IMG/VR virus record: IMGVR_UViG_3300028840_004512
Location: 3,333-67,332 of that record
Strand: one strand, 5' to 3'
Length of the DNA stretch: 64,000 nucleotides
From: a virus
Shown here piece after piece: positions 12,078 through 27,810 of this stretch. Each line of letters opens with the position of its first letter. Position 1 is the stretch's first letter. The translations under genes and the position numbers were made by a program. The notes beneath the pieces were generated by a model. It had not been told where the DNA came from and did no database searches. It saw only the letters and a list, made by a program, of their open reading frames with translations.

Positions 12078-13964
12078 TTACTGAAAAGCGAGAGGCTTAC
12101 GCAGCAGGTCAGTCTTGATGATCTGATCGACCAACGTCTCTCGGACCCTAACCGCCCCGCGCTGCACCTGCCCGACAGGAGTAGAGGCTACCAGCGCGCG
12201 AACGGTGCGCGGGATGGCGTAGGGGTCCTCAAAGGTGCTGTTGCCAATGCGGAAGCAAGGGATGCCCAGCTCTGCCGCAGTATCCTGCACACAGGTGGCA
12301 GCCATACCGAAGTGCGACTCAACCTTGATCAAACCAAAGGCCATCGGCCTTAGCCCAGACACCTGCACATCGTGGGTGAAGGTGCGTGCCTTCTCGTCGC
12401 CGATGAAGATAAACAAGGTGTCCTCATCATCCTTCGGCGGTCGATGCTGCAGCACCCGAATGCCTGCACCGTAGGCCGTCCCGCCCCCGGCGCGGAAGCC
12501 CGTGAAGGCGTGGCGAACGCCTACAGCGGAAGGGTGCTTGATCTCCACCTCACGCCCCGTCGTGTTGAACACCGAGACGTGTAGCTTGTCGAGCGGGAAG
12601 CCCTGCAGAAAGCGCTCGATGTACTGCTTGGCCGTTGGGATGCAATCCACCATCGAGCCCGAGATGTCGACCATGACGTAGACACGCAGGCCCTTGGTGA
12701 CCTCCTCGACAGCCTTTTTGACCGCTGTGTCCGCGGCCTCTTGCAGCTTCTCTCGGGCCTCCTTCGAGCGCACGCGCTCCGCAATGTTGGCCGCACGCTG
12801 GTCCTCCGCCTTCTGGATAGCCTGCTCCCACCGCCGCTTGATGCCTGCAACCTTGAGCAGCCCCAGCTCCTCTAAGGTCGGTGTGTAGATGATCAGGTCC
12901 TTGTCCGACAGACAGCCGGCGCCAACGGACGCGGCCATAACCGCTCGCGTGATGCCTACCTCCTTGGGGACCACACTAACCAACCGCTTAAACCCTGGCT
13001 TCTCGGCCTCGATGCGCCGGCACACCTGCTCCTCGTTCAAGCCCTCCCAGGTCTCCTCTTTGGTGACAGCCTTGCCAATGGCGAGGGACCGTCGACCATC
13101 CTTGGCCTGGTCTTGCTTCCAGCGCAGAACCTCAAAGAAGGATTCACTCTGCGGCTTGTAGCCCACACCGCAGGCAAGATTGATAACCGTGCTGCGAAAC
13201 CCAGCCTTGACCAGCCCCTGCAGCATCTTGGGGTTGTCCTCGCGGTATCGAAGCCACCGCTTGACCGCCTTGGGCCACCGGCCCAGAAAAGGCTTCCGCG
13301 CCGACTGCCCGAAGCCCAGCTCGCGGTTGAGCTGCGCAATCTCAGGCAGCTCCAACAGGTAGCGGATACGCTGCAGAAGCTTCGGGCTGAGATCCTTCCC
13401 ATCCTTCCGGACGATCAAGACCATTGCCTCCCCCACATCCCGGTAATCCTCGTCCGGGAACAGAACCTTCCCGTCCTCCTTAATCGGCTCACCGCAACGA
13501 GACTGCACCAGCATGAAGGCCGCCAGAGCAACCTTCAGGTCCCTGTGCTCCTGTCCGAAAGCGTAGGAGGCCCACCGCGCCGCGAACTCGTTATCGAGCT
13601 TCCACACCTCGGCGATCTGCTTGTACACCCAAACAGCCGCCTCGGGAAACAGCCCCGGCTTGCGGTACTGCCAGCTCTGCGTACCGTTGCGAACGACACC
13701 GTCGTCACCCAGGACGCCCAGCTTAACACGCGACCGCTTCCGCCCGACCTTACGGAGCTCAAAGACAACCTTCTGGCCATCCTCCTCCTTGTACACCACC
13801 GGCTTCCAGGACGCGCCGATCGCTGAGCCGTCGGCGCTCACCACCCCTGGTCTCCCGTGGTACAGGTGATCTCCCCAGCTCAGCAGCGTCTGAATGATCC
13901 GCTCCGCTGGCCCTAACGCCTCTCGGTCCATAACACTCTCCGTCCGTTGATATCCGCCCGACAC
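12078..13964 (-). CDS. Ro60/TROVE-like helical protein with C-terminal vWA (MIDAS) domain
   Basis: VMVDISGSM, GGGT, FIGDE MIDAS elements; LGRWPKAVKRW...VK...S...L....YKP resembles the Ro60 WGR..RKA..W...KY...S..D.LRL.H.KP segment (recalled). Confidence 0.7.
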   Translation of the reverse strand: MSGGYQRTESVMDREALGPAERIIQTLLSWGDHLYHGRPGVVSADGSAIGASWKPVVYKEEDGQKVVFELRKVGRKRSRVKLGVLGDDGVVRNGTQSWQYRKPGLFPEAAVWVYKQIAEVWKLDNEFAARWASYAFGQEHRDLKVALAAFMLVQSRCGEPIKEDGKVLFPDEDYRDVGEAMVLIVRKDGKDLSPKLLQRIRYLLELPEIAQLNRELGFGQSARKPFLGRWPKAVKRWLRYREDNPKMLQGLVKAGFRSTVINLACGVGYKPQSESFFEVLRWKQDQAKDGRRSLAIGKAVTKEETWEGLNEEQVCRRIEAEKPGFKRLVSVVPKEVGITRAVMAASVGAGCLSDKDLIIYTPTLEELGLLKVAGIKRRWEQAIQKAEDQRAANIAERVRSKEAREKLQEAADTAVKKAVEEVTKGLRVYVMVDISGSMVDCIPTAKQYIERFLQGFPLDKLHVSVFNTTGREVEIKHPSAVGVRHAFTGFRAGGGTAYGAGIRVLQHRPPKDDEDTLFIFIGDEKARTFTHDVQVSGLRPMAFGLIKVESHFGMAATCVQDTAAELGIPCFRIGNSTFEDPYAIPRTVRALVASTPVGQVQRGAVRVRETLVDQIIKTDLLRKPLAFQ

Positions 13965-14126: not shown

Positions 14127-14849
14127 CTAGCCGCGGAGGTAGGGCTCTATCTCCAGGGCGATGGCGGAGGCGGCCATAGCGGGGTCCTCGGCCTTGGTGA
14201 TAGGGCGTCCGACGACGATGTAGCTAGCACCATTCTTAAAAGCCTCGCCGGGGGTAGCGGTGCGGGCCTGGTCGTCCAGAGGGGGGACATCACTTCCCCG
14301 CGGACGGGGGCGGATACCGGGGACAACCAGGGCCGCTTTGGGGTAGAGTCCGCGGAGAGTCGCCACCTCCTTGGGGGAGCACACAAAGCCGGTGATGCCT
14401 TGGCTCTGTGCGACGCCTGCGACGTAGCGGACATACGTGTTGGGAGTGGCCCCCTTGACCTGCAGCTCTGTGTTGAGCTGCTCTGCGCTGATAGAGGTCA
14501 GCAACGTAACAGCCAGCAGCTGGACGCGGCTTGCAGCCTCCGCGGCGGCCTTGAGCATCTTAGAGCCCCCCGCAGCGTGAACCGTGAGGAACCGGGCCCC
14601 GAGCCTGTCTGCGCTCTCGACAGCACGAGCGACGGTGTTGGGGATATCGTGAAGCTTGAGATCAAGGAAAACATCCACCCCCAGGTCTCGCGCCCATCGG
14701 ACCGCATCGGGCCCCTCTGCTATGAACAGCTGGAGGCCAATCTTAAGGACACCCACGCGCCCGACGAGACCCCGCATGAGGGCCTTAGCCTCGGCCATAC
14801 TAGGCACGTCCACAGGTAGGACTATTCGACTGTACGCGACTCGCGACAT
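14127..14849 (-). CDS. pyrF: orotidine-5'-phosphate decarboxylase
   Basis: LKIG, FLDLKLHDIPNTV, TVHAAGG, AVTLLTS, VCSPKE, VPGIR, DDQAR..TP, IVVGRPIT; RBS GAGGAGG. Confidence 0.96.
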   Translation of the reverse strand: MSRVAYSRIVLPVDVPSMAEAKALMRGLVGRVGVLKIGLQLFIAEGPDAVRWARDLGVDVFLDLKLHDIPNTVARAVESADRLGARFLTVHAAGGSKMLKAAAEAASRVQLLAVTLLTSISAEQLNTELQVKGATPNTYVRYVAGVAQSQGITGFVCSPKEVATLRGLYPKAALVVPGIRPRPRGSDVPPLDDQARTATPGEAFKNGASYIVVGRPITKAEDPAMAASAIALEIEPYLRG

Positions 14850-15237
14850 AAGATCCTCCTCTTCGCTTCCGAGCATCCCCTCCAACCACCTCCCGGACAG
14901 TGTAGCGCTCCCCACGGCGCAGGGCATGAGCTACAGCACGCACCACTCGCGCGCTCACAACCAACGGCTCACCAACGCGCGACGGCTGCGGCTTGCGGGC
15001 CCGCAAGCAGATGCGCTTGAAGCCCCGTAGCCTCCACCAGCTAACGATGTTCCAGGCCACGATGACGGCTGTGTCCGGATGAATTGTGTCCCCCATCCGC
15101 TTATCAGGCCACCTCCAGCTGCCCTCCTGGCAGGGGCACGCGACCCAGCAGGGGCGGCCAAAAAGCCAACGGTCGACCAGCATCCGCGCCACCCCAGCCT
15201 CTACGCCGACGTCCGATTGCGTCCACTGCTTGCACAT
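14800..15237 (-). CDS. hypothetical protein
   Basis: Best ORF filling the gap; overlaps both neighbours, frame uncertain. Confidence 0.4.
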   Translation of the reverse strand: MCKQWTQSDVGVEAGVARMLVDRWLFGRPCWVACPCQEGSWRWPDKRMGDTIHPDTAVIVAWNIVSWWRLRGFKRICLRARKPQPSRVGEPLVVSARVVRAVAHALRRGERYTVREVVGGDARKRRGGSYVASRVQSNSPTCGRA

Positions 15238-15503
15238 ACGCGATTCCTCCCACGTAAAGAGGCCCGCAGGGCCTCCGGCGGAGGCGACGGTACCCGACGA
15301 CGGTTGTCGACCCCAAGCGCTCTAGAGAGCGTGCAGGGTGCCTCCAAACGCGCAGGCTTGACCGCCACCTTCTCGAACGCCCGAAAGAAGCTGCGGTCTA
15401 GGTGCCTCCTGGTAAGCTCGCTAACCTCCTGGCGAAAGCGTTCGAAGGCCCTGACGAGCCGCTCAAACGCCTCGTCCAGGTCTGGCACATCCGCGGACCT
15501 CAC
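15201..15503 (-). CDS. hypothetical protein
   Basis: GTG start overlapping the nucleotidase stop; helical N-terminus. Confidence 0.55.
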   Translation of the reverse strand: MRSADVPDLDEAFERLVRAFERFRQEVSELTRRHLDRSFFRAFEKVAVKPARLEAPCTLSRALGVDNRRRVPSPPPEALRASLRGRNRVCASSGRNRTSA

Positions 15504-16078
15504 AGCAGAGGCTCCAGGGCCTCCACGATCGTGGCCCACGCTTGCACAGGCTCTCGCCAGCTCTGGGCCATCATGTCTACATCCGCACCATGATTGTAGG
15601 GCCAGGCTATGGCCAACAGCTTCGCCTCGGGCCACGCCTTACGATATTTGAGGAGCTGGTCGGGCGCGTCATCAATCAGCACGTCCCCACGACATAGCTC
15701 CTTCCGACGAGTGATGATGATGTTCTTCTGGGGTAGAAAGGGAAGATGCTTGTAGACCCACCGCATCTTCTCCATAGCCGCGCGAGGGTAGTTGCCGGGC
15801 GAGGAGCAGATGACCACCTCCGCCCCCAAGCTGTCCAACGCATAGAGCGCATCGGAAGCGCCGGAGATGAGGGGTAGAGCCTCCCACCAGCCCTCGCGCC
15901 CCATATAGTCGTAGATCGACCCACCTTCGGGGAGGGCCCTAGAGAACTCGTAGTCAGTGAGGTCCTCGACCGAGACCTCGTCTCCACCTTCACGCTCAAG
16001 ATTGACGGTGTCCACGAACGCCTGCGGCAGGTTTACGCAGATACCGTCCAGGTCAACCAGAATCGTCAGCTTGCTCAT
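15500..16078 (-). CDS. 5'(3')-deoxyribonucleotidase (HAD, NT5C-like)
   Basis: ILVDLDG, ICSSP, EKMRWV, GDVLIDD, WPYN. Confidence 0.9.
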   Translation of the reverse strand: MSKLTILVDLDGICVNLPQAFVDTVNLEREGGDEVSVEDLTDYEFSRALPEGGSIYDYMGREGWWEALPLISGASDALYALDSLGAEVVICSSPGNYPRAAMEKMRWVYKHLPFLPQKNIIITRRKELCRGDVLIDDAPDQLLKYRKAWPEAKLLAIAWPYNHGADVDMMAQSWREPVQAWATIVEALEPLL

Positions 16079-16700
16079 CCACCACGTCCTCCAGCAGCAC
16101 CAACGTACCGTAATCGGGACTATAAGATACAACGCCGGTCTCCTTGCACCAAGTATCCAGATACCGCTGCAGCTCGTCCTTCTCGGCCTCGGATATACGG
16201 TCGTAAGCCTCCTCGTGGTGGTCCTCCAGAGCGCTCTCTAGGATATCCTCCACATCCATGCTCAAGAGCTCGGACTTACTACCCCAGACCTCCTTGGGAG
16301 GGCTAACCTCGCCGTAGTCGCAGTGATCGTAAAGGTAGTCTAAGGTTTGATAGTACTCGTCCTCCCAGAAGAAGCCGGCGCCCTCATACTCCGACAGCGG
16401 CACGCGCTTGACCTTCGCTCGCCTCTTACGGTCCATCTCCGCGTCGTGCTCAGTCCACCTCCGCTTGCGACAGGGCTCACAGGCTGTCCAGCTGTTACCG
16501 CCGGTCAGCGCCCCACAAGCACAGCGCCGGTAGCAGCAGTCAAGCGCCATCTCCCGCGCATTCTCGGGGAAGGACAAGGTGGTAAAAAGCTGCCCGCACT
16601 TTCCGCAAGCAAAGGCGACCGTCACACGGTCGCCTTTAAGCTCCCGAAAGATCGGGAAGGGTTGCTTTATGCTGCCTTCGTCGCCTGCTCCTGTGTCCAT
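16053..16700 (-). CDS. Cys-rich hypothetical protein
   Basis: 215 aa; CGKC, CACG, CEPC; acidic C-terminal domain. Confidence 0.75.
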   Translation of the reverse strand: MDTGAGDEGSIKQPFPIFRELKGDRVTVAFACGKCGQLFTTLSFPENAREMALDCCYRRCACGALTGGNSWTACEPCRKRRWTEHDAEMDRKRRAKVKRVPLSEYEGAGFFWEDEYYQTLDYLYDHCDYGEVSPPKEVWGSKSELLSMDVEDILESALEDHHEEAYDRISEAEKDELQRYLDTWCKETGVVSYSPDYGTLVLLEDVVDEQADDSG

Positions 16701-17608
16701 CTCTTGCGCTCCTCAATTGGTGTTGATGCCAAACGCTCCAACCGTATGTGGTCCGGCTTAGGCTCCTGCAGTAGCCAGCAGTACCAGCCGTAGATCACAC
16801 TGTCAGACCCCCGCTCGTCAAAGGACGGCCGATTAGGAAGCTGATAGATGACGTGAGGTAGGTGCTCTTCGAAGAACGGCACGCGCTTTTCGGACCCGAG
16901 GAAGTTCATACTCAGCAGCATAAAGACCGCCCGAGAGGCTACCTTGAAGGAGTGCCGGATAAACTCCTCAGCTAAGCGATACGGAGGGTTCCCGAGCACA
17001 ATCGTGTGCTCCCCTTGGGGGTACCAGTGCAGGTAGTTCTGCGGGCAGATGATGCGACTGCTACGCAGCGCCGACAGGGCCGGAAGACAATCATCCAACA
17101 GCTCTACCGCAGCCCAGGGAATATCGGGGCGGTATTCCTGCACGGTGTTGATAATGCCCCCAAAACCTGCGCCAGGCTCAATCCAAGGCCCCTCAGCATG
17201 GCGAAGCAGCTCACAGTGCTCCATCAGCCGCCTCACCACCCAAGGAGGACTGGAATATCGGTCAGCCGCAGATCGCTGACCTCCCCTATTAGTGCTAGAC
17301 ATCGGTTCAGTATTATCCTTTACCTCAAAGTGCTCACCCAGGAAGGTCACACCTCCTGGACAGAAGGCCAGGCACGCCAAGCCCTCAGCTAGATGATTGA
17401 AAGCCTCCGCTGTTCCCCGCGTCCTCGTGCCGTCCTTCCCGCGTTTAGCGGGTGTTGCGTACAAGATCTTATCCCCATCACTAGCCAGGACCTGCGCACA
17501 CTCTCGCGCTCGCTGCAGCCGATAATCCCAACCCTGAAGGCGCACGCGCTCCACCCACATAGGAACCGCCGCACACAACGATATCCGCAGCAGCTCCTCA
17601 CTCACCAC
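16667..17608 (-). CDS. DNA amino-methyltransferase (N6-adenine type) with an extra N-terminal domain
   Basis: DRYSSPPW, IEPGAGFGGI (motif I), GNPPY (motif IV), RPSF, YGWYCW. Confidence 0.85.
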   Translation of the reverse strand: MVSEELLRISLCAAVPMWVERVRLQGWDYRLQRARECAQVLASDGDKILYATPAKRGKDGTRTRGTAEAFNHLAEGLACLAFCPGGVTFLGEHFEVKDNTEPMSSTNRGGQRSAADRYSSPPWVVRRLMEHCELLRHAEGPWIEPGAGFGGIINTVQEYRPDIPWAAVELLDDCLPALSALRSSRIICPQNYLHWYPQGEHTIVLGNPPYRLAEEFIRHSFKVASRAVFMLLSMNFLGSEKRVPFFEEHLPHVIYQLPNRPSFDERGSDSVIYGWYCWLLQEPKPDHIRLERLASTPIEERKRWTQEQATKAA

Positions 17609-17915
17609 CAGCCTCCCGACAATGGCGGCATGTCACATCGTCCAGTCGCCCTCGAACCCAATAGTGTCCGATAGGCCAATCACACGGCGCGTCCTCAGTG
17701 AAGCCACATGCGGGCCGCCCTCCTACCAGCAGGTGCACCTCACGCACCCCTTCTCGCCGCGCAGCCTGCATCTCCTCAGCCCACGTGCTCGCACCCTGCG
17801 CAGCGAACGCAATCACCGCCTTCCGCGCGCAGTCCTGACATATGCTAGACGCTCCCTGGTCCACCACATCCCCATATTCATGGCAAAAGTCGCACCGCCC
17901 CTCGCCAAAGGTCAT
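17598..17915 (-). CDS. zinc-finger protein (ClpX-type C4-like N-terminus)
   Basis: CDFC...ICQDC; ATG 5 nt after the -10 box. Confidence 0.7.
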   Translation of the reverse strand: MTFGEGRCDFCHEYGDVVDQGASSICQDCARKAVIAFAAQGASTWAEEMQAARREGVREVHLLVGGRPACGFTEDAPCDWPIGHYWVRGRLDDVTCRHCREAGGE

Positions 17916-17920
17916 GCGAC

Positions 17921-17949
17921 ACCTTACCAAGTGGTCAAGGGATTGTCAA
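17921..17949 (-). promoter_or_regulatory. sigma70-type promoter heading the early/accessory region
   Basis: TTGACA-17bp-TAAGGT, with TG just upstream of -10. Confidence 0.8.
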
Positions 17950-17962
17950 CAAACCGTCCCCA

Positions 17963-18003
17963 GAAACACGAAAACCCCGCCAAGCTCCTCGCCTGACAGG
18001 GTC
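17963..18003 (-). terminator. intrinsic terminator-like hairpin
   Basis: GACCCUGUCAGGC-GAGGA-GCUUGGCGGGGUU followed by UUCGUGUUUC. Confidence 0.6.
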
Positions 18004-18076
18004 CCGCTGGGCTACCGCCCCAACCTCAGCACGCCGCTCGTTTCAATCCTTGTTGTAATGGATTAATCAGTGGCGC
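18004..18076 (-). CRISPR. solitary CRISPR-like repeat (18040-18076) plus 36-nt spacer-like segment (18004-18039)
   Basis: GCGCCACTGATTAATCCATTACAACAAGGATTGAAAC: 37 nt, AT-rich in GC-rich DNA, AATCC/GGATT hairpin, ATTGAAAC 3' end typical of class 1 repeats. Confidence 0.7.
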
Positions 18077-18383
18077 CAAGGCCCCGCGCTAACCTCACCA
18101 CTCCTTCGTCTCCTCCAGAGGGCTCAGCCGCCCGGCTCTCCGCTCGTCCACCCGCTCCGGTCCAGCTTCCACCTTCCCTTCGCGACCTTCGCCTGCCCGG
18201 CTTCCCTGCGGTCTCCCGCTCCACCGCGCCTGCCCGAACGCCGCTTCCTCACCTTCCTCCGCTTAGCGGTCTCCAGCTCGGCTACGGCCCGTGAATACCC
18301 CAGCTCGGCTCTCGCCTCCCCGTTGCACCACCACCGCCCGCCACCTCTCGGTCGCGCACGGCCCCGTCGAACGAAGCGAGGGC

Positions 18384-18434
18384 ATACTGTCAGAAAGCGG
18401 TGAGCTGTGCAAGCAAAAAAGAAACTTTTTTTTT
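18384..18434 (-). promoter_or_regulatory. putative promoter with A/T UP-element upstream of the non-coding leader
   Basis: A9-GTTTC-T6 tract, then TTGCAC-17bp-CAGTAT. Confidence 0.5.
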
Positions 18435-18439
18435 GAGGA

Positions 18440-18745
18440 CTACGCTCCTCGGCGCCGGCGCAGCTTTGCGGACTTTGCTGCAGACTTCTTTCCGCCCGCA
18501 CTCTTACGCCACCGTGCCTTGGCTTTGGCCAGCTTCCGAAGCTGCGCAGAGGGCACTGTCTGACACGAGCCTCCGACCATGTGCTGGCCCTTTGGACACT
18601 GCTTGCCTGTCCTCGTGCCCATGCCTCCCGCCACGCGGCGCTTGACCGTTCGAGCCGCCTCCTCTGTCTCATCGCCGTCCAGCTCTGGCGGCTCGACGCT
18701 ATCCATCAGCTCTCGGACCTCGTTAATTAGCCTCTGCAGACTCAT
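18440..18745 (-). CDS. small protein, acidic N-terminus and basic C-terminus (putative head-associated)
   Basis: MSLQRLINEVRELM...; K/R-rich tail. Confidence 0.7.
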   Translation of the reverse strand: MSLQRLINEVRELMDSVEPPELDGDETEEAARTVKRRVAGGMGTRTGKQCPKGQHMVGGSCQTVPSAQLRKLAKAKARWRKSAGGKKSAAKSAKLRRRRGA

Positions 18746-18757
18746 CTCGTGCTTCTC

Positions 18758-19159
18758 CTATAGCGTATATTCTGCCGCCACCTCGGGGTCGACAGGCGCT
18801 GGGCCTCCTTGAAGCCAGCGCTCCTCGGCATCGTCGTCCTCGGGGTAGCCTAACAGCTGGTTGCAGTCGATCCAACCAAAGTGTGTCCCATCCGCCATCC
18901 GCTGGCGGCTCGCGAAGTGGAGGCGCTGAAAGCAAACACGCTCTCCCACCTTCACCGTCGCGGTAGGCCCCACCGCACAGACAACTCCCTTGACAACCCG
19001 CTTGTGAGGCAGGCCGCCGTAGAAGTCCACCTGCTTATGGGGAAGCCAAACTCCCCCCTCCGTCCGTCGATACGGGGGCTCTGTCCGCACGAAAACCCAG
19101 TACTTGAGGGGCCTAATCCGATAGCCCAGCTCATCCCACGTCCGCTCTACAACGTCCAT
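18758..19159 (-). CDS. GroES-like co-chaperonin
   Basis: IRPLKYWVFVR....TEGGVWLP...GVVCAVGP..VKVGERV. Confidence 0.8.
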   Translation of the reverse strand: MDVVERTWDELGYRIRPLKYWVFVRTEPPYRRTEGGVWLPHKQVDFYGGLPHKRVVKGVVCAVGPTATVKVGERVCFQRLHFASRQRMADGTHFGWIDCNQLLGYPEDDDAEERWLQGGPAPVDPEVAAEYTL

Positions 19160-19189
19160 AACTGCTCCCTCGTCCTCCCTTCAGCGCGC

Positions 19190-19726
19190 CTACTCTTTCA
19201 GCGCCTGGTCAATCGGTTTCGCCAGCGCCGCAACGGTCTTAGGAAGATCGTTGATTGCAGCGCCTACCTTGCTCGCCGGGATGTCTACCCATATCTTCAC
19301 CACATCGTCTCGACCAACAGAGGGGAACTGGGCCTTCCCCATCCTCCCAAAGCTGCTGAGAGCCCCCTTGAGGACCTGAGACGCCTGCCAGTGAAGCTCC
19401 GCCACATCCCCACGCTGGTTGAAGGTAGGCGTCCACAGCTCGATGTAGAACACGTAGTCGTCTCTATTCTGCTGGCTCCCAATCTCAAACGTGAGCCTAG
19501 AGGGAGGGTTGAGCTCCGGAAGGGCTATCTCCACACCCTTGTTCCAGCCGCCGCCGAACACTGCAGCCTTGCGGCCGAGACGATTGAAGGCCGCTGCCAG
19601 GGCCTCTGCAGCCTTGTCACGCGCCGCATCCAGCGCCTGGGCACCCTCCTCTCCCTCAACCACATAGTCGCTGTACCGTGAGGCCACACCCGCAAGCCTC
19701 AACTGCTCCTGCAAAAGCTTGTTCAT
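19190..19726 (-). CDS. hypothetical protein
   Basis: 178 aa; N-terminal QLRLAGV motif. Confidence 0.75.
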   Translation of the reverse strand: MNKLLQEQLRLAGVASRYSDYVVEGEEGAQALDAARDKAAEALAAAFNRLGRKAAVFGGGWNKGVEIALPELNPPSRLTFEIGSQQNRDDYVFYIELWTPTFNQRGDVAELHWQASQVLKGALSSFGRMGKAQFPSVGRDDVVKIWVDIPASKVGAAINDLPKTVAALAKPIDQALKE

Positions 19727-19738
19727 GATCCTATACCC

Positions 19739-19945
19739 CTAACCACAATTGCGGCAGCCCGTCCGGCGCCGACGACGAAAAGACACTTTATCATTCAGCC
19801 AACGGCGACGCTCCCGACAGCCCGCGCACTCCTTAATGCCCAGCTTCTTCGTGACCTTGGAGACCACGTCTCCAAGCCCCTCCAGCTGGTCCGCCTCATC
19901 AAGCAGCTCTCGGACACCCTGCTCTGCACTGCTAGTGTTAGCCAC
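19739..19945 (-). CDS. small Cys-containing phage protein
   Basis: GLGDVVSKVTKKLGIKECAGCRERRRWLN. Confidence 0.7.
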   Translation of the reverse strand: MANTSSAEQGVRELLDEADQLEGLGDVVSKVTKKLGIKECAGCRERRRWLNDKVSFRRRRRTGCRNCG

Positions 19946-20668
19946 CTACTCCTCCTCCCACCACGAGGCGCGGGGGCCGATGCCCGAGAGGCGCCGCAGC
20001 TCCGCCATGCCTTCGCGGCTCTCCAGCACGGTCGCGCCAAACTCCCCTATACAGCTGAACGCCTTCCGGTTGGCCTGGACGGCCTCGCGGCAAGCCTCCT
20101 TAGCCTTCTTGAGCGCGCGCTTCTGCCGCGGCCTCATAGGCTTCTCGGTTAGCTCACAAAGCGAGTCATACAGCACCTTCGAGGTGCTGGCGAGCTTCAT
20201 CGCCCGCGCCTGCAGCTTGCGCGCGGGGTCCCAGTGCTGCTGCCCAACAGGGTCGCCTGGCTCGTCATCCTCGGGCTCCAGCAGCACCTTCTTCTTATCC
20301 TTGGACTTGCCCTTAGACTTTGCCTTCGGCTTGTCTTGGGGCTCCTTATCCAAGGGCTCATCACTCTCGGGCTCCTCGGGCTCATCCTTCTTCTTAGGAG
20401 GCTCCTTTTTCACGGGAGCTTTCTTCGCCTTCGGCTCTGGCTCCTCCGGCTCCTTGTCCGAAACAGGCTCTTGCAGAGTGTCGTCGTCCTCGGGCTCCTC
20501 GGGCTCGTCCTTCTCTGGCTCCTTCTTCTTCGGAGGTGCCTTCTTGCCCTTCGCCTTCTTATCCTTGACCATGCCGGGCAGGTGCCCGTCGTAGACCAGC
20601 TCATCCAGGCGCCAGTCGTCAAACCGAGGCCCGAGACCTGCTAGCTGCCTAAGCTGCTTCATACCCAT
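19946..20668 (-). CDS. low-complexity K/E/P-rich protein (scaffold/internal-head-like)
   Basis: QLRQLAGL and ELRRLSGI motifs; EPEEPE repeats. Confidence 0.75.
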   Translation of the reverse strand: MGMKQLRQLAGLGPRFDDWRLDELVYDGHLPGMVKDKKAKGKKAPPKKKEPEKDEPEEPEDDDTLQEPVSDKEPEEPEPKAKKAPVKKEPPKKKDEPEEPESDEPLDKEPQDKPKAKSKGKSKDKKKVLLEPEDDEPGDPVGQQHWDPARKLQARAMKLASTSKVLYDSLCELTEKPMRPRQKRALKKAKEACREAVQANRKAFSCIGEFGATVLESREGMAELRRLSGIGPRASWWEEE

Positions 20669-20679
20669 GCCTGTCTCTC

Positions 20680-21066
20680 CTAAACCTGTGTATCGATGAT
20701 AACCCGAACCCTGGAGCCTACACGCGTCACCTGAATCCGAAAGTTGATGTCGTTGGGGAGCTCCTCCACTGCAGCCCCCATCCCCCGCAGCTCTACATGG
20801 CCGCGCAGGTTGCGCGTAACCACCCCCTCCTCTAGAGGACGAGGCTCGGAGCCGAAGCCTAGGGCCTTAGCCACCGACTCGACAGCGTCGGCTGGGAGGT
20901 CAAACGAGGTCGCGCTCACCTGTACCCCCACCGCTCCAGGAAGAGGATCGCCAGCTCCCGAACGTAGGCGTCCGAGAGAGGTGAGCTGTAGGGCGGGCCC
21001 TTCGTCTTCCCATACTTGGTGCAGCCCGCATAGCTGAGGTCCTTGTACATACAGAACCGTTGCCAC
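20680..21066 (-). CDS. hypothetical protein (true start probably further downstream)
   Basis: ORF overlaps 20916..21176; C-terminal half looks coding. Confidence 0.45.
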   Translation of the reverse strand: MATVLYVQGPQLCGLHQVWEDEGPALQLTSLGRLRSGAGDPLPGAVGVQVSATSFDLPADAVESVAKALGFGSEPRPLEEGVVTRNLRGHVELRGMGAAVEELPNDINFRIQVTRVGSRVRVIIDTQV

Positions 21067-21176
21067 GCTACACGAGAGCAGTATCCCTTGCTCTTATCCG
21101 GCTGCTTCTCCCGACAGTCAGCATAGTAGCGGTTGACATCCGCCGGGGCGCCCTTGATGTGCTCTTTACCGGGCAC
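20916..21176 (-). CDS. small hypothetical protein
   Basis: YYADC....DKSKGYCSRVAW. Confidence 0.65.
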   Translation of the reverse strand: MPGKEHIKGAPADVNRYYADCREKQPDKSKGYCSRVAWQRFCMYKDLSYAGCTKYGKTKGPPYSSPLSDAYVRELAILFLERWGYR

Positions 21177-21179
21177 CGG

Positions 21180-21683
21180 TCACCACGCCTCGATGTGATA
21201 GGTTGCAGCAAACGTGGGGACGGCCCGCCTAACGGATATCCCCGACTCGTGGCGGTCGCGAAAGATCGCATCCGTGTTCGCAAGCACCACCCCGTGGACG
21301 TTAACCCCATCAAAGGATACCTCCAGGGCTCCAGGCCCGGCATTGTAGACTCGAATAGCGCCAGACCACAGCTGCGCCTTGGGAGACGCTTGCTGCGTCT
21401 CCGGGTAGTTCTGATGCTGCGGGGGTGCCGCATCCTCAGCTATCTCCCTCCCACCCATCGGGGAGCCCCCACGGTTAAGATTGCCTATGCTGACCTTGGT
21501 CGTCTGGTCCCCAGGCGCTAAGTAGGGTGTGGGATCTACAGTGTTGGCCGTCGTCTGGTTAATAAACAGCCACGCGTGATCGCCGAAGGACGCTGAAAGG
21601 TCAGTGCTAGTCCCCGTAACGTAGAAGCGTATAGACCGACGTCCTGACGCCGGACGGGGAGGCCAGAAGATGGGGAAGGGCAT
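21180..21683 (-). CDS. virion-protein-like, tandem paralog A
   Basis: High identity to 21687..22178. Confidence 0.85.
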   Translation of the reverse strand: MPFPIFWPPRPASGRRSIRFYVTGTSTDLSASFGDHAWLFINQTTANTVDPTPYLAPGDQTTKVSIGNLNRGGSPMGGREIAEDAAPPQHQNYPETQQASPKAQLWSGAIRVYNAGPGALEVSFDGVNVHGVVLANTDAIFRDRHESGISVRRAVPTFAATYHIEAW

Positions 21684-22013
21684 CGATCACCAAGCCTCCA
21701 CATGAAAGGTGGGAGTGGCCCCTCCTACACCCCGGACGCATATCCCAGCCTCAAAGCGCTCGCGGTAGGTAACCTCCATCCCAGCGGCCACATAGCCGTG
21801 CACGTTGGTGCCATCAAACGACAGCTCTAGGTCCCCCACCCCCTCGTTGACCACGCGGATACTGTTGGCCCACAGCTGCTCTTTTGGGGATGCTTGCTGC
21901 GTTGCTGGTGGGTTCTCATGCTGCGGGGGTGCCGCATCCTCCGCTATCCGACGGCCACCCATCGGGGAGCCCCCACGGTTAAGATTGCCTATGCTGACCT
22001 TGGTCGTCTGGTC
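21451..22013. repeat. 59-bp perfect direct repeat shared by the tandem paralogs (21451-21509, 21955-22013)
   Basis: ccacccatcggggagccccc...ggtcgtctggtc is identical in both. Confidence 0.9.
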
Positions 22014-22178
22014 TCCTGGCGCAAGATAAGGAGTAGGGTCCACCGTGTTGGCCGTCGTCTGCTCGACGAACAACCACGCGTTGTCCCCAAAGGAGACCGT
22101 ACACGTACCAGTCTCGTAGAATCGGATAGATCGCCGCCCGGAGGAAGGTCGCGGGGGCCAGAAGGTGGGGAAGGGCAT
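21687..22178 (-). CDS. virion-protein-like, tandem paralog B
   Basis: MPFPTFWPPRPSSGRRSIRFY...FHVEAW; start set at ATG 22178 by paralogy. Confidence 0.85.
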   Translation of the reverse strand: MPFPTFWPPRPSSGRRSIRFYETGTCTVSFGDNAWLFVEQTTANTVDPTPYLAPGDQTTKVSIGNLNRGGSPMGGRRIAEDAAPPQHENPPATQQASPKEQLWANSIRVVNEGVGDLELSFDGTNVHGYVAAGMEVTYRERFEAGICVRGVGGATPTFHVEAW

Positions 22179-22182
22179 TGAT

Positions 22183-22446
22183 CTACTTCTCCTTAGTGCC
22201 GGGCGCTGTACGCCGCAGATAATCCTCAACAGCTCGCGAGAGCAGCTCCGCTAGCCGCATATTGCGCGCCGCTGCGTCCTGCTGCAAGCGCTGATAGAAG
22301 TCCAGCGGCACCGCAAGAAACACCAGCTGATTGCTGAAGCCCGCAGCCTTCGCCGCCGCCTCGTAATCCTCGGGCTGCCCATCCTCCTGCTGAAGCTGCG
22401 GTAACGCGGAAACCTTTGTCATGATCGCAACGAGCCTATCCTCCAA
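22183..22446 (-). CDS. ribbon-helix-helix-like DNA-binding protein
   Basis: VFLAVPLDFYQRLQQDAAARNMRLAELLSRAVEDYL. Confidence 0.6.
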   Translation of the reverse strand: MEDRLVAIMTKVSALPQLQQEDGQPEDYEAAAKAAGFSNQLVFLAVPLDFYQRLQQDAAARNMRLAELLSRAVEDYLRRTAPGTKEK

Positions 22447-22626
22447 ACCACTTTATCACGACGCAGCGCCGCGCGTAATGATTCAGGGAGCTCCACGTTT
22501 GCCTAGCTCGCGCCCCGCTATATCCTGCGTCCCCTTCATCCGTTCTGCTAAACTTACCAAAAACCGCGGTCGGGCTGCTTTCGCGTTAGCTTCCTGCCCA
22601 AACGGAAGAGCCGCCAAGGCGTACAG

Positions 22627-22824
22627 ATGGTCAGTAAGACCCTCCACCTCCCTCTAGCGTTGATTGAGAAGGTAGACCGCTACGCTGAGGTCCGAGGCGT
22701 AAGCCGCAACGTAGCGTTCGAGGAACTCCTAACGGTAGCCACCGACGGTCCCCAAAGCCTCCCCTTCCCTGTCGAAATGTTGCGGATTGCCCTCAAGGCG
22801 GCCGGCCTAAAGAATCCCGACTAA
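22627..22824 (+). CDS. CopG/RHH-like regulator
   Basis: KTLHLPLALIEKVDRYAEVRGVSRNVAFEELL. Confidence 0.65.
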   Translation: MVSKTLHLPLALIEKVDRYAEVRGVSRNVAFEELLTVATDGPQSLPFPVEMLRIALKAAGLKNPD

Positions 22825-23653
22825 CCTTCCCTGTACCCTTCATCCCAGCGTACGAGCGCTGCTTCCCCACAGGCGGAGGCTCCGGCTGCGGATCTTTACC
22901 CGACAGCTCCCAGCTGATGGCAAGGTCCATCATCGCCTTGTCCCCCTTTGACAGCTTCCCCACCCCCGTCGCCTTCAAAGCACGGTCATAAACGCTCTTT
23001 ATCGAGCTCCCGCTGTCCTTGGCGGCGATCTTTCGCGCTGCTGTGTACACCGTCTTCGCCGCCTGCGATTGGAAGGGGTAGACCGGCGGCTCATCCGCCG
23101 CCCGCGTAGCCTGCGGCATCACGATCGAGTAGCCCCCTATCCGACGGTCGAAGTACTCCCCCAGCCCACGCTCTATCGCTGCGACCACGTGGTCGCGCGT
23201 CTGCTCCAGCTTCTTGCTGAACACGTCGACGATGTAGCGCCACCCCGCCGCTATCTCGTCCGGCCCCATCCCGCGCCGACGTGCCGTCTCCTCCCAGTCC
23301 GGCTTGTCGAACGGCGGCCGATGCCCTGTCCTCACCTTCTCTCGGGCCCACACGTGCGCCTCCGTGCGCGTATCAGGACCCAAAGGCGCCACCGGGCTAC
23401 CGAGCCCCACCCCGCCACGCTTCGGTGGCCTCACGAGGGCCTCTGAGCGCCTTTTGCGGAGGTCCTCAACCCCTAGACCCCCCACAGCAAGACCAGCCTT
23501 AGAAGGGCCGCCAGCAGCCTCTGAGGAGTAGGGGGGACGATGGGTGGGCCACGAGGGCTTGTCGCACAGCCGCTCAGCCTCGGCCCGAGAGGTACCGGCC
23601 GCTACGCGGCGCCTAACGCAGTCGTCAAACAGATCGCTCAGCTCAACCAGCAC
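22793..23653 (-). CDS. hypothetical protein
   Basis: 286-aa ORF with RBS GGAGG. Confidence 0.7.
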   Translation of the reverse strand: MLVELSDLFDDCVRRRVAAGTSRAEAERLCDKPSWPTHRPPYSSEAAGGPSKAGLAVGGLGVEDLRKRRSEALVRPPKRGGVGLGSPVAPLGPDTRTEAHVWAREKVRTGHRPPFDKPDWEETARRRGMGPDEIAAGWRYIVDVFSKKLEQTRDHVVAAIERGLGEYFDRRIGGYSIVMPQATRAADEPPVYPFQSQAAKTVYTAARKIAAKDSGSSIKSVYDRALKATGVGKLSKGDKAMMDLAISWELSGKDPQPEPPPVGKQRSYAGMKGTGKVSRDSLGRPP

Positions 23654-23662
23654 ACTCGCCTC

Positions 23663-24421
23663 CTACTTCTTGAGTACGTCTGGAGCCAGCTTATACCCAA
23701 AGGACTTCTCCGGCCCAGGACTCCCCTCTCGCTCGTACCACATATGTATCCCTCCTGCCGGGAAGGTCACCGCCCCCGACGGATTCTGCGCGACCTGAGC
23801 AAAAGCCAGGGACACCGTAGCCACCCGAGGTAAGCCTGACGGGAACCACGCCTCGTAGTTAACATCACACTGAGTCATCACACACTGAAGCTCGTCCGGC
23901 ACGTTTCCCGTGATGTAGGCTCCTCCTGCTGTCCCCATGCCGCTCTTCGGGAACACCAACAGCAGACGAGGGGGCGCCGTAGCAGCAGGTACACCCAGAG
24001 GTCCTTCAGTATCATAGGTAGGCAACATGAACGCCCGCAGCCAAAGGACCGCCGCCCGTATATCCACGTTTCGGTCCTCCGCCTTAATATTCTTTAACCG
24101 CGTCGCTATGTCCGATGTCCCGAACCCCTTGTTCTTCTCCGCCACCACCAAATCAACATCCGTGGTAAAGACCGCCGTAAACGAGATGGTGCGCTCCCCC
24201 GAGGATATCCAGTTGTAGATGGGCAGCGAGGCTCCCGGTATCTCACGCGGGGCCCAGTTGACAGCCTTGGTGTCCGAGACAGACTCGGGAAAGTACTGAA
24301 ACCGTAGAGCGTCCCCTGTCTCCGGCTCGCCGTTGGCCTTCAGCGGCACGATGTAGGCCGCTACCTTCCTCTGGGAGACCTTGGAGAACGGAGGGCGAGT
24401 GAGAGACGAAAGCGCTACCAT
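23663..24421 (-). CDS. contractile-tail tube-initiator / CIS tube-like protein
   Basis: FQYFPESVSDTKAVNW...IPGASLPIYNW..GERTISF...PPRLLL...CVMTQCDVNY...GLPRVATVSLAF. Confidence 0.75.
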   Translation of the reverse strand: MVALSSLTRPPFSKVSQRKVAAYIVPLKANGEPETGDALRFQYFPESVSDTKAVNWAPREIPGASLPIYNWISSGERTISFTAVFTTDVDLVVAEKNKGFGTSDIATRLKNIKAEDRNVDIRAAVLWLRAFMLPTYDTEGPLGVPAATAPPRLLLVFPKSGMGTAGGAYITGNVPDELQCVMTQCDVNYEAWFPSGLPRVATVSLAFAQVAQNPSGAVTFPAGGIHMWYEREGSPGPEKSFGYKLAPDVLKK

Positions 24422-24459
24422 GGGTTACCTCAGTACTACAGTAACACGAGCCGCGAGCC

Positions 24460-24831
24460 TTACGCAGTCGTTAGATAGTCAAGCGCTCGGGTGATGAGGT
24501 CCGACAGAAGCCTCGTTGCTACCTCCCTACGCCCTCCCGTGGCGGGAGCCCGCTCCCACTCCTGCAATAGACGACGCCCCTCCCGTGCCAGGTCTAGAGC
24601 ATCCGCGGTGCCGCGCAGCTCTAGCCGCTCGACCACATCGGCAACCACCCCAGGGAGGAACTCATAGGTGGTAGATATCAGCCGCATCCGCTCGCGGAAG
24701 TGCGCCCAGCGTAGATACTGCGCCGGGGTCTGGAAGCCGTCGTCGCACCAGCGGCAAGGGCTCGATAGCCGCTCGCCGCCACACGCCTCGCAAGGTCTAA
24801 GAGTGTCGGGGGGAAGATCGCTCGGGGTCAA
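24460..24831 (-). CDS. hypothetical protein with CxxC pairs
   Basis: CEACGG, CRWCDDG. Confidence 0.65.
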   Translation of the reverse strand: MTPSDLPPDTLRPCEACGGERLSSPCRWCDDGFQTPAQYLRWAHFRERMRLISTTYEFLPGVVADVVERLELRGTADALDLAREGRRLLQEWERAPATGGRREVATRLLSDLITRALDYLTTA

Positions 24832-24837
24832 GCAGGG

Positions 24838-25353
24838 CTACTTCTTCTTAGCCTTCTTCTTTTTCTTGGCTAGGATCTTCGCCTTGTTCTTCTTGTAGTA
24901 CTCCTTGGCGTACGCCTTAGCTACAGCCTTCACGGCCTTAGCGTTCTTGGAATTGACAGACTTCCCCGCGCCCTTGCTACGCCACGGCTTGTACTCCTGG
25001 TTGTAATCACCCTTCCAGGGCTTATCGATGATGACCTTACGGATCTCCCCCTTCTTCCCTTTGCAAGTGTACTTGTAATTCTTACCCTTGCACTTCCAGT
25101 ACTTGGTCTCCTTATTCGTGCCGCCGCGCGGCCCGACACCAAGGTCCTTCTTGTGCTGGAAGGGATTGCGGTTGGGGGCCTCCAGCAGCATCTCGGCCCG
25201 GCGGACGCAACGTGCAGCCTCATCGAGACGCCCTGCCGCCAGGTGCCCCTCGGCCTCGTCCAGCATTGCGTGAACATCCGGCAGCTCCACCGCGTCAAGA
25301 AGCCCTTGGACCTCGTCGGCCGCTCTCCGCCCTTCAGTTATTGATCTCGACAT
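24838..25353 (-). CDS. Lys-rich protein with acidic N-terminal segment
   Basis: 171 aa; MSRSITE...MLLE, then a highly basic domain. Confidence 0.75.
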   Translation of the reverse strand: MSRSITEGRRAADEVQGLLDAVELPDVHAMLDEAEGHLAAGRLDEAARCVRRAEMLLEAPNRNPFQHKKDLGVGPRGGTNKETKYWKCKGKNYKYTCKGKKGEIRKVIIDKPWKGDYNQEYKPWRSKGAGKSVNSKNAKAVKAVAKAYAKEYYKKNKAKILAKKKKKAKKK

Positions 25354-25430
25354 ATAAGCTCCCGACGGGTCGTGGGATACGCTCCCACCCTGTTCTCATA
25401 CCACTCAGCAATGAGGCGCACACAGAGCCG

Positions 25431-27690: not shown

Positions 27691-27700
27691 GAAGCATGGT

Positions 27701-27799: not shown

Positions 27800-27810
27800 G
27801 CCCTACGTCG

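What the first reader, a model, noticed from the sequence alone, without database searches (positions are those of the whole stretch)
17963..18434. Solitary CRISPR repeat transcription unit without cas genes: promoter, ~300-nt leader, repeat, 36-nt spacer, terminator
Seen: a non-coding gap between late and early regions holds an UP-like tract with promoter, one 37-nt repeat ending ACAACAAGGATTGAAAC, exactly 36 nt, then a terminator hairpin. Known: ATTGAAAC is the 8-nt 5' handle left by Cas6 in many type I/III systems; phage solitary repeat units can act as RNA anti-CRISPRs (Racr), and mini-arrays can borrow host Cas against competitors. Inference: host Cas6 processing would give a crRNA mimic or a single guide.
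Basis: partly seen in the sequence, partly recalled or inferred. Interest (0 to 1): 0.8.

Follow-up and report, generated by a model that had tools for sequence, protein, structure and literature searches.

The report
Solitary CRISPR repeat in a phage
A large uncultured phage carries one genuine copy of a bacterial type I-B CRISPR repeat inside a small non-coding insert, most likely an RNA decoy or borrowed guide aimed at the host's CRISPR system, which is a kind of element already known from other phages.

Summary
Window 18076..18040(-) is a real 37-nt CRISPR repeat. It is the only Rfam hit in the window (CRISPR-DR7, full length, E 0.0042). It also carries the family's invariant TCCA, which was not part of the search pattern (52 of 52 consensus repeats). 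The arrays examined sit beside type I-B cas genes.

The repeat is solitary. About 310 nt of G-rich non-coding sequence precede it. A 34-36-nt tail and the strongest terminator-like hairpin of the 20 kb scanned follow it. The whole ~490-nt cassette is missing from the one syntenic relative and from three more distant ones.

The proposed promoter is weak. No target was found for the "spacer", no host was identified and no RNA data exist.

Best reading: a type I-B solitary repeat unit, that is a Racr-like or crRNA-like anti-CRISPR RNA. It is a new member of a known kind, of moderate interest.

The parts
18440..18745 (-). Context: upstream 101-aa gene with stop TAG at 18442..18440. This is the last conserved gene before the cassette.
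   Evidence: ORF list. 45% identity over 40 aa to the L145 gene 6397..7008.
18415..18434 (-). A9-GTTTC-T6 tract at the 5' edge of the cassette. It may be an UP-like element; its role is unknown.
   Evidence: Read directly.
18384..18412 (-). Weak promoter-like pair TTGCAC-17 nt-CAGTAT.
   Evidence: Read directly. It matches 3 of 6 positions in each hexamer (my count) and was not reported by the scan.
18077..18383 (-). G-rich non-coding 'leader' of about 310 nt.
   Evidence: 70% GC and 47% G, with no codon-position signal. No tandem repeats. Fold z-score only -1.74. No similarity to 9 genuine leaders of the family or to phage records.
18040..18076 (-). Solitary 37-nt CRISPR repeat of the type I-B family. 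The conserved stem ATCC/GGAT is at 18063..18060 and 18049..18046. The predicted Cas6b cut lies between 18048 and 18047, leaving the handle ATTGAAAC at 18047..18040.
   Evidence: Rfam CRISPR-DR7, model 1-37/37. 17-mer shared with arrays. Invariant TCCA present.
18004..18039 (-). 36-nt spacer-like tail. Its last 2 nt are already in the terminator stem.
   Evidence: Read directly. The length equals the family's spacers (periods 72-75 minus 37). No target found.
17961..18005 (-). Intrinsic-terminator-like hairpin (15 pairs, 7 of them G-C, loop of 5) followed by a U-rich tail.
17921..17949 (-). Context: TTGACA-17-TAAGGT promoter of the next operon, 5 nt before the ATG at 17915. It marks the 3' edge of the insert.
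   Evidence: Read directly. The TTGACAATCC promoter is conserved in L145, where it follows the upstream gene's stop codon by about 10 nt.
17601..17915 (-). Context: 105-aa Cys-rich ORF of unknown function, not shared with L145.
   Evidence: No Pfam or PHROG hit. The Atlas gave only weak zinc-ribbon-like leads. No tblastn match in the relatives.

Best explanation
The cassette at about 18439..17950(-) is an accessory, non-coding insert in a large phage. It carries one genuine repeat of a type I-B CRISPR family.

Proposed mechanism (every step is inferred):
1. The minus strand is transcribed, either from the weak promoter behind the A/T tract or by read-through from the upstream late genes. Transcription stops at the strong hairpin 18005..17971.
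2. The host's Cas6b binds the repeat's 3' stem (ATCC/GGAT) and cuts 8 nt before the repeat's end.
3. This releases an RNA of about 85 nt: the ATTGAAAC handle, a 34-36-nt tail and the terminator hairpin.
4. This crRNA look-alike, together with the Cas6b-bound 5' product, takes up Cas6b, Cas5 and Cas7. That weakens loading of the host's own crRNAs, as a Racr-type RNA anti-CRISPR does.

Whether the tail also guides Cascade to a target is left open (see rival 1).
For: The repeat is real:
- Rfam CRISPR-DR7 hits full length on the minus strand and is the only hit in the window.
- The 17-mer recurs with a period of 72-75 nt in arrays of many phyla.
- TCCA at repeat positions 15-18 was not in the search pattern. 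It is invariant in 52 of 52 distinct array consensus repeats and is present here.

The family is type I-B:
- 19 of the 20 flanking ORFs tested, from 8 of 9 loci, are Cas proteins: Cas3, Cas7, Cas5, Cas8b (TM1802), Cas6b, Cas4 and Cas1. No Cas10 was among them.
- A published I-B array has a like repeat end (PMC4832164, passage).

The repeat is solitary, intergenic and on the gene strand.

It is a discrete insert:
- In the syntenic relative L145 the upstream gene's stop is followed within about 10 nt by the same TTGACAATCC promoter.
- None of the 4 related records holds the repeat or the cassette.

The neighbourhood is variable and holds another counter-defence-type gene, a DNA methyltransferase (phrog_799).

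Precedents:
- Viral solitary repeat units act as Racrs that bind Cas proteins. 2,103 were catalogued on viral sequences (PMC10651486, passages).
- In Haloferax type I-B the crRNA 3' handle is 'completely dispensable' and Cas6b is needed only for maturation (PMC4326828, passages). A repeat with no downstream partner can therefore still give a loadable RNA.

Five other IMG/VR records carry single copies of this same family and one carries two.
Against: - No promoter lies next to the repeat. [quoted passage not shown] Three sister SRUs (L014, L024, L005) have AT-rich, promoter-like sequence about 13 to 40 nt upstream (my reading of the sequences printed). Here about 310 nt of G-rich sequence intervene, and the candidate promoter is weak.
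- If the cassette is expressed only by read-through from the structural-gene operon, the RNA would come late. That suits an anti-CRISPR poorly. No terminator-like site lies on the minus strand between 22323 and 18005.
- The 5' third of the repeat differs from every array seen. The best identity is 31 of 37. G at position 3 occurs in 1 of 52 family consensus repeats and C at position 7 in 2 of 52.
- No host is known, so the match between the SRU and the host's CRISPR subtype is untested.
- No acr gene is recognisable next to it.
- The cassette is absent from all relatives, so conservation gives no evidence of selection.
Confidence: 0.55

Rival explanations
1. One-repeat guide gene. The processed RNA (handle plus 36-nt spacer, with the terminator hairpin standing in for the 3' handle) is a working crRNA. 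It uses the host's type I-B Cascade and Cas3 in one of two ways: to destroy a competing phage or plasmid, as viral mini-arrays do, or to repress a host cas or creT promoter through partial pairing, as Cracr/crlRNA elements do.
For: - That is the spacer length of this family (periods 72-75 minus 37).
- In Haloferax type I-B the 3' handle is dispensable (PMC4326828).
- Viral mini-arrays and Cracrs are established (PMC11656645 passages; bioRxiv 10.1101/2024.10.29.618823 sections 3 and 7). That preprint lists I-B among the predicted Cracr targets.
Against: - There is no exact protospacer in IMG/VR and no credible one in 50,697 phage records (best E 0.03, Mycobacterium phages).
- None was found in the full records of 4 related phages or elsewhere in the phage's own record.
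- Seed-anchored matches in 1.04 Mb of fetched loci, including cas neighbourhoods, are no better than for shuffled spacers (12 nt against 9-13).
- There is no second repeat or pseudo-repeat, which both mini-arrays and Cracrs have.
- The first half of the tail can pair with the 12 nt that straddle the repeat's 5' edge (z -2.74). This hints at a structural rather than a guiding role.
- All database searches were either exact-match or covered small collections, so a target could easily have been missed.
Confidence: 0.25
2. Inert relic. A fragment of a host CRISPR array (one repeat with neighbouring sequence) was picked up by illegitimate recombination and is decaying. It persists only because it sits in a tolerant intergenic spot next to a useful terminator.
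For: - The cassette is unique to this phage.
- The 5' third of the repeat is divergent.
- There is no nearby promoter.
- A second, degraded near-copy of the repeat's 3' end (15 of 17) lies at 27717..27701(-). This suggests such fragments come and go.
Against: - The 24 nt that matter for the stem and handle are intact, including every invariant family position.
- The leader shows no homology to genuine leaders, and nothing beyond repeat positions 5-37 resembles array DNA. This is therefore not a simple leader-repeat-spacer capture.
- The unit is on the transcribed strand and is neatly followed by a terminator.
Confidence: 0.12
3. Part of the phage's own CRISPR-Cas system. The unseen ~76% of this large genome encodes cas genes, and this is an orphan one-unit locus serving them.
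For: - The record is estimated to be 24% complete.
- A relative is 179 kb at 88% completeness, so these are large phages.
- Some phages encode CRISPR-Cas systems (PMC11656645 passages).
Against: - No Cas6b_C, Cas7 or Cas1 was found in the 67 kb available.
- No CRISPR repeat was found in the 12-21-kb loci of the relatives.
- A phage-encoded system would be expected to have a proper array.
Confidence: 0.05
4. Chance resemblance. The cassette is only an operon-end 3' UTR with a terminator.
For: The Rfam score is 2.5 bits under the gathering threshold.
Against: - E is 0.0042 for the whole window.
- The exact 17-mer is expected far less than 0.01 times.
- The independent TCCA lies at the right offset.
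- The orientation agrees with the genes and the terminator.
Confidence: 0.03

Closest known systems
Solitary repeat units / RNA anti-CRISPRs (Racr), Camara-Wilpert et al. 2023 (PMC10651486; passages read)
   Same: A single CRISPR repeat in an intergenic region of a virus, with no cas genes nearby and no partial repeat within 100 nt. The repeat belongs to a known subtype's family. The expected action is binding of Cas6 and Cas7-type proteins.
   Different: No promoter lies directly upstream; about 310 nt of G-rich sequence precede the repeat. A tail of spacer length and a strong terminator follow it. The host and its CRISPR subtype are unknown. No acr neighbour is recognised. Activity is untested. 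The validated Racrs mentioned in the passages I read are type I-F and I-C, not I-B.
Virus-borne mini-CRISPR arrays (PMC6858448, search listing and start of abstract only; review PMC11656645, passages)
   Same: A phage-borne CRISPR part that relies on host Cas proteins, with one spacer-length unit after a repeat.
   Different: Mini-arrays have two or more repeats identical to the host's, and their spacers mostly match related viruses. Here there is one repeat and no match in 4 relatives.
Cracr / viral crRNA-like regulatory RNAs (bioRxiv 10.1101/2024.10.29.618823; abstract and sections 3 and 7 read)
   Same: A phage RNA with a CRISPR-repeat-derived handle plus a short guide. The preprint lists type I-B among the predicted targets.
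   Different: Cracrs were found by similarity to host CreA/CreR and need at least 9 PAM-proximal matches to a cas or creT promoter. No such match could be tested against the true host, and none was seen in the fetched loci. No flanking pseudo-repeat is present.
Type I-B CRISPR repeat family, Rfam CRISPR-DR7 (RF01320)
   Same: 37 nt, an ATCC/GGAT stem with a 10-nt loop, and the 3' end ATTGAAAC. The alignment is full length.
   Different: It is not in an array. The score is 34.5 bits against a gathering score of 37. The 5' 13 nt are unlike any array seen (best overall identity 31 of 37).
Cas6b-independent minimal crRNA (icrRNA) of Haloferax volcanii type I-B (PMC4326828; passages)
   Same: It shows that an 8-nt 5' handle plus a spacer, without a 3' handle, is enough for type I-B interference. 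That is the architecture this cassette would yield.
   Different: That RNA is an engineered construct in an archaeon. Here the unit is natural, the 3' end is a terminator hairpin, and Cas6b would still be needed to make the 5' end.

Membership tests
CRISPR repeat of the type I-B family (Rfam CRISPR-DR7-like) | Full-length sequence and structure match to the curated repeat model. | tested here: inconclusive
   Model 1-37/37, 34.5 bits, E 0.0042 in the window, but 2.5 bits below the gathering score.
CRISPR repeat of the type I-B family (Rfam CRISPR-DR7-like) | Invariant core (TCCA-NN-ACAACAAGGATTGAAAC) and the ATCC/GGAT stem shared with genuine arrays. | tested here: met
   The 17-mer is exact. 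TCCA is invariant in 52 of 52 consensus repeats and present here; the stem is predicted.
CRISPR repeat of the type I-B family (Rfam CRISPR-DR7-like) | The family's arrays lie beside type I-B cas genes (Cas8b, Cas7, Cas5, Cas3, Cas6b). | tested here: met
   19 of 20 flanking ORFs, from 8 of 9 loci, are Cas proteins. They include Cas8b TM1802 (1 locus), Cas6b (1), Cas7 (2) and Cas3 (5).
CRISPR array | Two or more repeats at regular spacing. | tested here: not met
   No second copy within 160 nt. The only other near-match lies 9.6 kb away.
Solitary repeat unit (SRU) / Racr candidate | A full-length match to a known repeat, intergenic, in a mobile element, with no partial repeat within 100 nt. | tested here: met
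   The record is a virus record with phage structural genes.
Solitary repeat unit (SRU) / Racr candidate | No associated cas genes. | tested here: inconclusive
   None in the 67 kb available, but the record is about 24% of the genome.
Solitary repeat unit (SRU) / Racr candidate | Own promoter close upstream (frequent, not obligatory). | tested here: not met
   The scan found none. The nearest candidate is weak and lies about 310 nt upstream.
Solitary repeat unit (SRU) / Racr candidate | The repeat matches the CRISPR subtype of the host. | not testable with these tools
   The host is unknown. The best array repeat is 31 of 37. There was no better match in 151 sampled Gammaproteobacteria.
Solitary repeat unit (SRU) / Racr candidate | Expressed as a small RNA that binds Cas proteins and inhibits interference. 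| not testable with these tools
   This needs RNA data and assays.
Viral mini-CRISPR array | A spacer flanked by two repeats. | tested here: not met
Viral mini-CRISPR array | The spacer matches related viruses. | tested here: not met
   No match in the 4 related records, in IMG/VR by exact search or in INPHARED. Closer relatives were not available.
Cracr / crlRNA | At least 9 PAM-proximal matches to a host cas or creT promoter. | not testable with these tools
   The host genome is unknown. In 1.04 Mb of fetched loci the best anchored match (12 nt) lies within the range for shuffled controls.

The most novel reading that the evidence does not exclude
The cassette is a natural 'one-repeat guide gene': repeat, spacer, terminator. 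Host Cas6b makes the 5' handle and the intrinsic terminator replaces the downstream repeat. A single repeat would then be enough for a phage to arm the host's type I-B Cascade and Cas3 with a guide of its own, aimed at a competitor or at a host defence promoter. This would blur the line between Racr, mini-array and Cracr. It would also show that solitary repeats with a spacer-length tail should be read as guides.
Probability: 0.22. Interest if true: 0.6.

Novelty: new member of a known kind. Interest (0 to 1): 0.35.

Why it matters
It adds a clear type I-B example, from a large marine-sediment phage, to the catalogue of phage-borne solitary CRISPR repeats. Two features are unusual: a long G-rich leader, and a spacer-length tail closed by a terminator. 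If the RNA is processed and loaded, it would show how little CRISPR sequence a phage needs to tamper with, or borrow, a type I-B system. It would also offer a compact natural design for single-guide cassettes. As it stands it is a candidate, not a demonstrated function. The class itself is already described: 2,103 viral SRUs in PMC10651486.

Tried and rejected
Host prediction from the repeat.
The best full-length identity was 31 of 37, in Marichromatium bheemlicum (L091) and Candidatus Contendobacter (L035).
- An exact 28-mer of the repeat gave 0 metagenome contigs.
- A 26-mer gave 10 contigs. Eight of these have 31-38% GC. Eight carry the GTCTGAAAGAC... form of the repeat that is also seen in Nitrosopumilaceae/Nitrososphaerota loci L027 and L114; seven of those eight are among the low-GC contigs. 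They are unlikely hosts for a 60% GC phage.
- A single-sequence model (R1) found nothing better in 151 sampled Gammaproteobacteria. This means 'not found in those searched', not 'absent'.
- The nearest Atlas clusters to the phage's pyrF are mostly Pseudomonadota. This is a weak lead only.
- None of 1,624 spacers from the fetched arrays matches the window over more than 15 nt.

Spacer target. See rival 1. The IMG/VR search was exact-match only, so imperfect protospacers would be missed.

Expression. No RNA holder was listed by the look-up of sequencing runs. The two DNA holders may be the source sample. Their contigs carry the cassette with 0 differences, and they also include one 279-288-nt minor contig that is 90% like 18303..18394.

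Coding potential of the leader. Three frames on each strand were examined. The open frame that continues from ORF 18124..18672 has GC2 of 0.70 and gives an Arg/Gly-rich product, so I rejected it as a gene.

Structured-RNA reading. The whole cassette folds with z -1.74. There are no tandem repeats, no other Rfam family and no similarity in phage records.

'Seed array' reading (leader plus one repeat as a substrate for host Cas1-Cas2). The leader has no similarity to 9 genuine leaders, which are less G-rich (16-31% G against 43%) and mostly AT-rich next to the repeat. 5 of those 9 end in TGCG or AGCG at the repeat junction; the window's leader does not.

Class-level geometry. Only 10 solitary family copies had enough flank to analyse. 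3 of the 10 have a terminator-like site within 130 nt, starting 35 nt (the window), 19 nt and 89 nt after the repeat. There is no general rule.

Second site at 27717..27701(-). It has no CRISPR-DR hit, a fold z of -0.35, no TCCA core, and no array among the fetched loci ends in its variant handle. It is left unexplained.

Things I could not do.
- Faure et al. 2019, the first SRU survey, was seen only as cited in PMC10651486.
Full report
WHAT IS THERE

The window is part of an IMG/VR virus record of 67,332 nt that CheckV rates 24% complete. It has about 60% GC and a steady negative GC skew, and nearly all convincing genes lie on the minus strand. The finding is also on the minus strand. Reading 5' to 3' on that strand:
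- A 101-aa gene ends with TAG at 18442..18440.
- An A9-GTTTC-T6 tract follows at 18434..18415.
- The hexamer pair TTGCAC-17-CAGTAT lies at 18412..18384.
- About 310 nt of G-rich sequence run to 18077.
- The 37-nt repeat lies at 18076..18040.
- 36 further nt lie at 18039..18004.
- A 15-pair hairpin with a U-rich tail lies at 18005..17971 and beyond.
- TTGACA-17-TAAGGT (17949..17921) lies 5 nt before the ATG of a 105-aa Cys-rich ORF.

IS IT MORE THAN CHANCE?

Yes. With up to three mismatches allowed, the 17-mer is expected 0.01 times per window. Rfam's CRISPR-DR7 model aligns end to end to exactly 18076..18040(-), at 34.5 bits against a gathering score of 37. E is 4e-05 in a 601-nt search. E is 0.0042 in the whole window, where it is the only family with E<=1.

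Of these, 54 hold three or more copies, and the commonest spacings are 72-75 nt. So the repeats are 37 nt and the spacers about 36 nt.

From arrays with three or more copies I derived 52 distinct consensus repeats. In all 52, TCCA occupies positions 15-18. The window has it too, although it was not part of the search pattern. The predicted stem ATCC/GGAT with a 10-nt loop is also kept. Similarity to arrays covers repeat positions 5-37 at best and does not extend into the leader. The first 13 nt are unlike any array seen. The best overall identity is 31 of 37, to Marichromatium bheemlicum and Candidatus Contendobacter.

WHICH CRISPR TYPE?

I tested 20 ORFs that flank arrays in nine loci. Nineteen are Cas proteins: Cas3 with HD and helicase domains, Cas7 (PF05107), Cas5, Cas8b (TM1802), Cas6b (both domains), Cas4 and Cas1. 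The twentieth is carbamoyl-phosphate synthase. No Cas10 appeared. A published type I-B locus has a repeat with a like 3' end (PMC4832164).

IS IT SOLITARY AND NON-CODING?

The repeat aligns to 160 nt on either side no better than to shuffled flanks.

The leader has 70% GC and 47% G, and GC at the three codon positions is almost flat (0.65/0.70/0.73). Eleven neighbouring genes have GC2 of 0.39-0.55. It has no tandem repeats and no significant fold (z -1.74). It has no Rfam family besides the repeat and no similarity to 50,697 phage records. It also has no similarity to nine genuine leaders of the family. Those are less G-rich (16-31% G against 43%), mostly AT-rich next to the repeat, and in five cases end in TGCG or AGCG at the repeat junction.

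No Cas6b_C, Cas7 or Cas1 is encoded in the 67-kb record, but three quarters of the genome is unseen.

CONTEXT AND COMPARISON

Upstream on the minus strand lie structural genes: a baseplate wedge subunit, a virion structural protein and tail fibres. Small genes follow, including a GroES-like one. Downstream lie a DNA methyltransferase, a 5'-deoxynucleotidase (NT5C) and an OMP decarboxylase.

No terminator-like site lies on the minus strand between 22323 and 18005. The 18005 hairpin has the longest stem of the 14 sites in 8001-28000. The cassette could therefore also be transcribed by read-through and would mark the end of that operon.

One IMG/VR record (L145/L157) is collinear with window ~25,800..14,500 at 30-70% amino-acid identity. 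There the homologue of the 101-aa gene stops about 10 nt before the same TTGACAATCC promoter. So the ~490 nt from 18439 to 17950 are an insertion in this phage, or a clean deletion in the other.

Three more distant relatives were found with a two-sequence profile. One is 179 kb at 88% completeness. None has a CRISPR-DR hit or a near-match to the 17-mer in the fetched 12-21 kb. None of the four full records has any meaningful match to the cassette. The 105-aa ORF after the cassette is also not shared. This is a variable spot in the genome.

SISTER ELEMENTS

Of the 22 IMG/VR stretches with the exact 17-mer, six have the TCCA core. Five are single copies (L005, L006, L013, L014, L024) and one has two repeats (L008). 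Three of the singles have AT-rich, promoter-like sequence 13-40 nt upstream; this is my reading of the printed sequences, not a promoter scan. One (L005) has a terminator whose stem starts 19 nt after the repeat. The window's element belongs to this set but differs in its long leader.

HOW IT MOST LIKELY WORKS

The sequence features and the family assignment are shown. Everything else is inferred. The minus strand is transcribed and terminated at 18005..17971. Host Cas6b binds the repeat's 3' stem and cuts 8 nt from its end. The 3' product (handle, 34-36 nt, hairpin) and the Cas6b-bound 5' product compete with host crRNAs for Cas6b, Cas5 and Cas7. This is the mechanism shown for RacrIF1 and proposed for the 2,103 viral solitary repeat units catalogued in PMC10651486 (passages).

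Type I-B tolerates this architecture. In Haloferax the 3' handle is completely dispensable, and Cas6b is needed only for maturation (PMC4326828). I put this reading at 0.55.

THE MAIN RIVAL (0.25)

The tail may be a true guide, directed at a competitor as in mini-arrays (PMC11656645) or at a host cas or creT promoter as in Cracrs (bioRxiv 10.1101/2024.10.29.618823, sections 3 and 7). The spacer-like length before the hairpin speaks for it.

Against it:
- No target was found in IMG/VR by exact search.
- No credible target was found in phage records.
- None was found in the phage's own record or in the four relatives.
- None was found in 1.04 Mb of fetched loci beyond what shuffled controls give.
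- There is no second repeat.
- The tail can pair with the repeat's 5' edge.

These searches are weak, and the true host is unknown. A relic (0.12), a part of an unseen phage-encoded system (0.05) and chance (0.03) remain.

HOST

The host is not identified. An exact 28-mer is absent from JGI metagenome contigs. A 26-mer finds mainly low-GC arrays that carry the GTCTGAAAGAC... form of the repeat also seen in Nitrosopumilaceae/Nitrososphaerota loci. A single-sequence model found nothing better than the 31-of-37 repeats in 151 sampled Gammaproteobacteria. None of 1,624 spacers from the fetched arrays hits the phage. The two best repeats come from Gammaproteobacteria, and the phage's pyrF sits nearest to Pseudomonadota clusters. 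These are weak, merely concordant hints. The DNA occurs in sediment and seawater metagenome runs that may be its source.

VERDICT

Phage-borne solitary repeats, RNA anti-CRISPRs, mini-arrays and viral crRNA-like RNAs are all described. This is therefore a new member of a known kind, with an unusual layout (long G-rich leader, spacer-length tail, terminator). I could not check whether the published SRU tables already list this record, because supplements are closed. Interest is 0.35.

Noticed in passing
window 27701..27717 (-), context 27690..27810: A second near-copy of the repeat's 3' end (ACAACAAGGATTAAAGC, 15 of 17) lies in a 120-nt gap between a minus-strand structural gene and a plus-strand HNH gene. 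It sits about 50 nt downstream of a promoter-like TTGAAA-17-TAGATT (27798..27770) and is flanked by the 9-nt inverted repeat GGGCATAGC/GCTATGCCC. It lacks the TCCA core, has no CRISPR-DR hit and no significant fold, and no fetched array ends in its variant handle. A match this close is expected about 0.01 times per window. It remains unexplained and may be a decayed repeat fragment.
   Followed up: partly
window 27046..27690 (+): A 214-aa ORF with an HNH-like C-terminus (my reading of the translation, not a family search) lies on the opposite strand amid minus-strand structural genes. It is probably a homing endonuclease insertion.
   Followed up: no
window 28448..36228 (-): Three tandem paralogous large genes (28448..30484, 30890..33478, 33775..36228) lie about 2,870 nt apart with up to 84% DNA identity in patches. 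Two of them hit phrog_19162. They look like diversified tail-fibre or receptor-binding genes.
   Followed up: partly
window 21180..22229 (-): Two adjacent paralogous small genes (167 and 180 aa, about 74% DNA identity, 504 nt apart) have a single homologue region in L145.
   Followed up: no
window 14127..16132 (-) and 12078..13964 (-): Auxiliary nucleotide-metabolism genes lie in the phage: OMP decarboxylase (pyrF, E 5e-50) and an NT5C-type 5'-deoxynucleotidase. Next to them is a 628-aa protein with a weak vWA domain.
   Followed up: partly
window 17913..17949 (-); L145 7021..7056: A near-consensus promoter TTGACAATCC... ends only 5-6 nt before the ATG in both phages. This implies leaderless or nearly leaderless mRNAs in this phage group.
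   Followed up: no
window 60430..60771: Three tandem copies of a 114-nt unit (83% and 61% identity to the first) lie apparently within a coding region.
   Followed up: no
L014 3456..3560 (+) and L008 10660..10767 (+): Other IMG/VR records carry this repeat family. L014 (65% GC) has a TATAAT-like box about 13 nt upstream of a single repeat, and the sequence GTTTGAAAC ends 62 nt after that repeat, which may be a degenerate second repeat. L008 is a two-repeat, one-spacer mini-array.
   Followed up: partly
window 18303..18394: Both DNA runs hold a low-depth contig of 279-288 nt that is 90% identical to this part of the leader but has different flanks. A diverged variant of the cassette or of its leader therefore exists in the same samples.
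   Followed up: no
leaders in L091, L137, L129, L139, L124: Five of nine genuine leaders of this type I-B repeat family end in TGCG or AGCG directly before the first repeat. This may be a leader-repeat junction motif.
   Followed up: no
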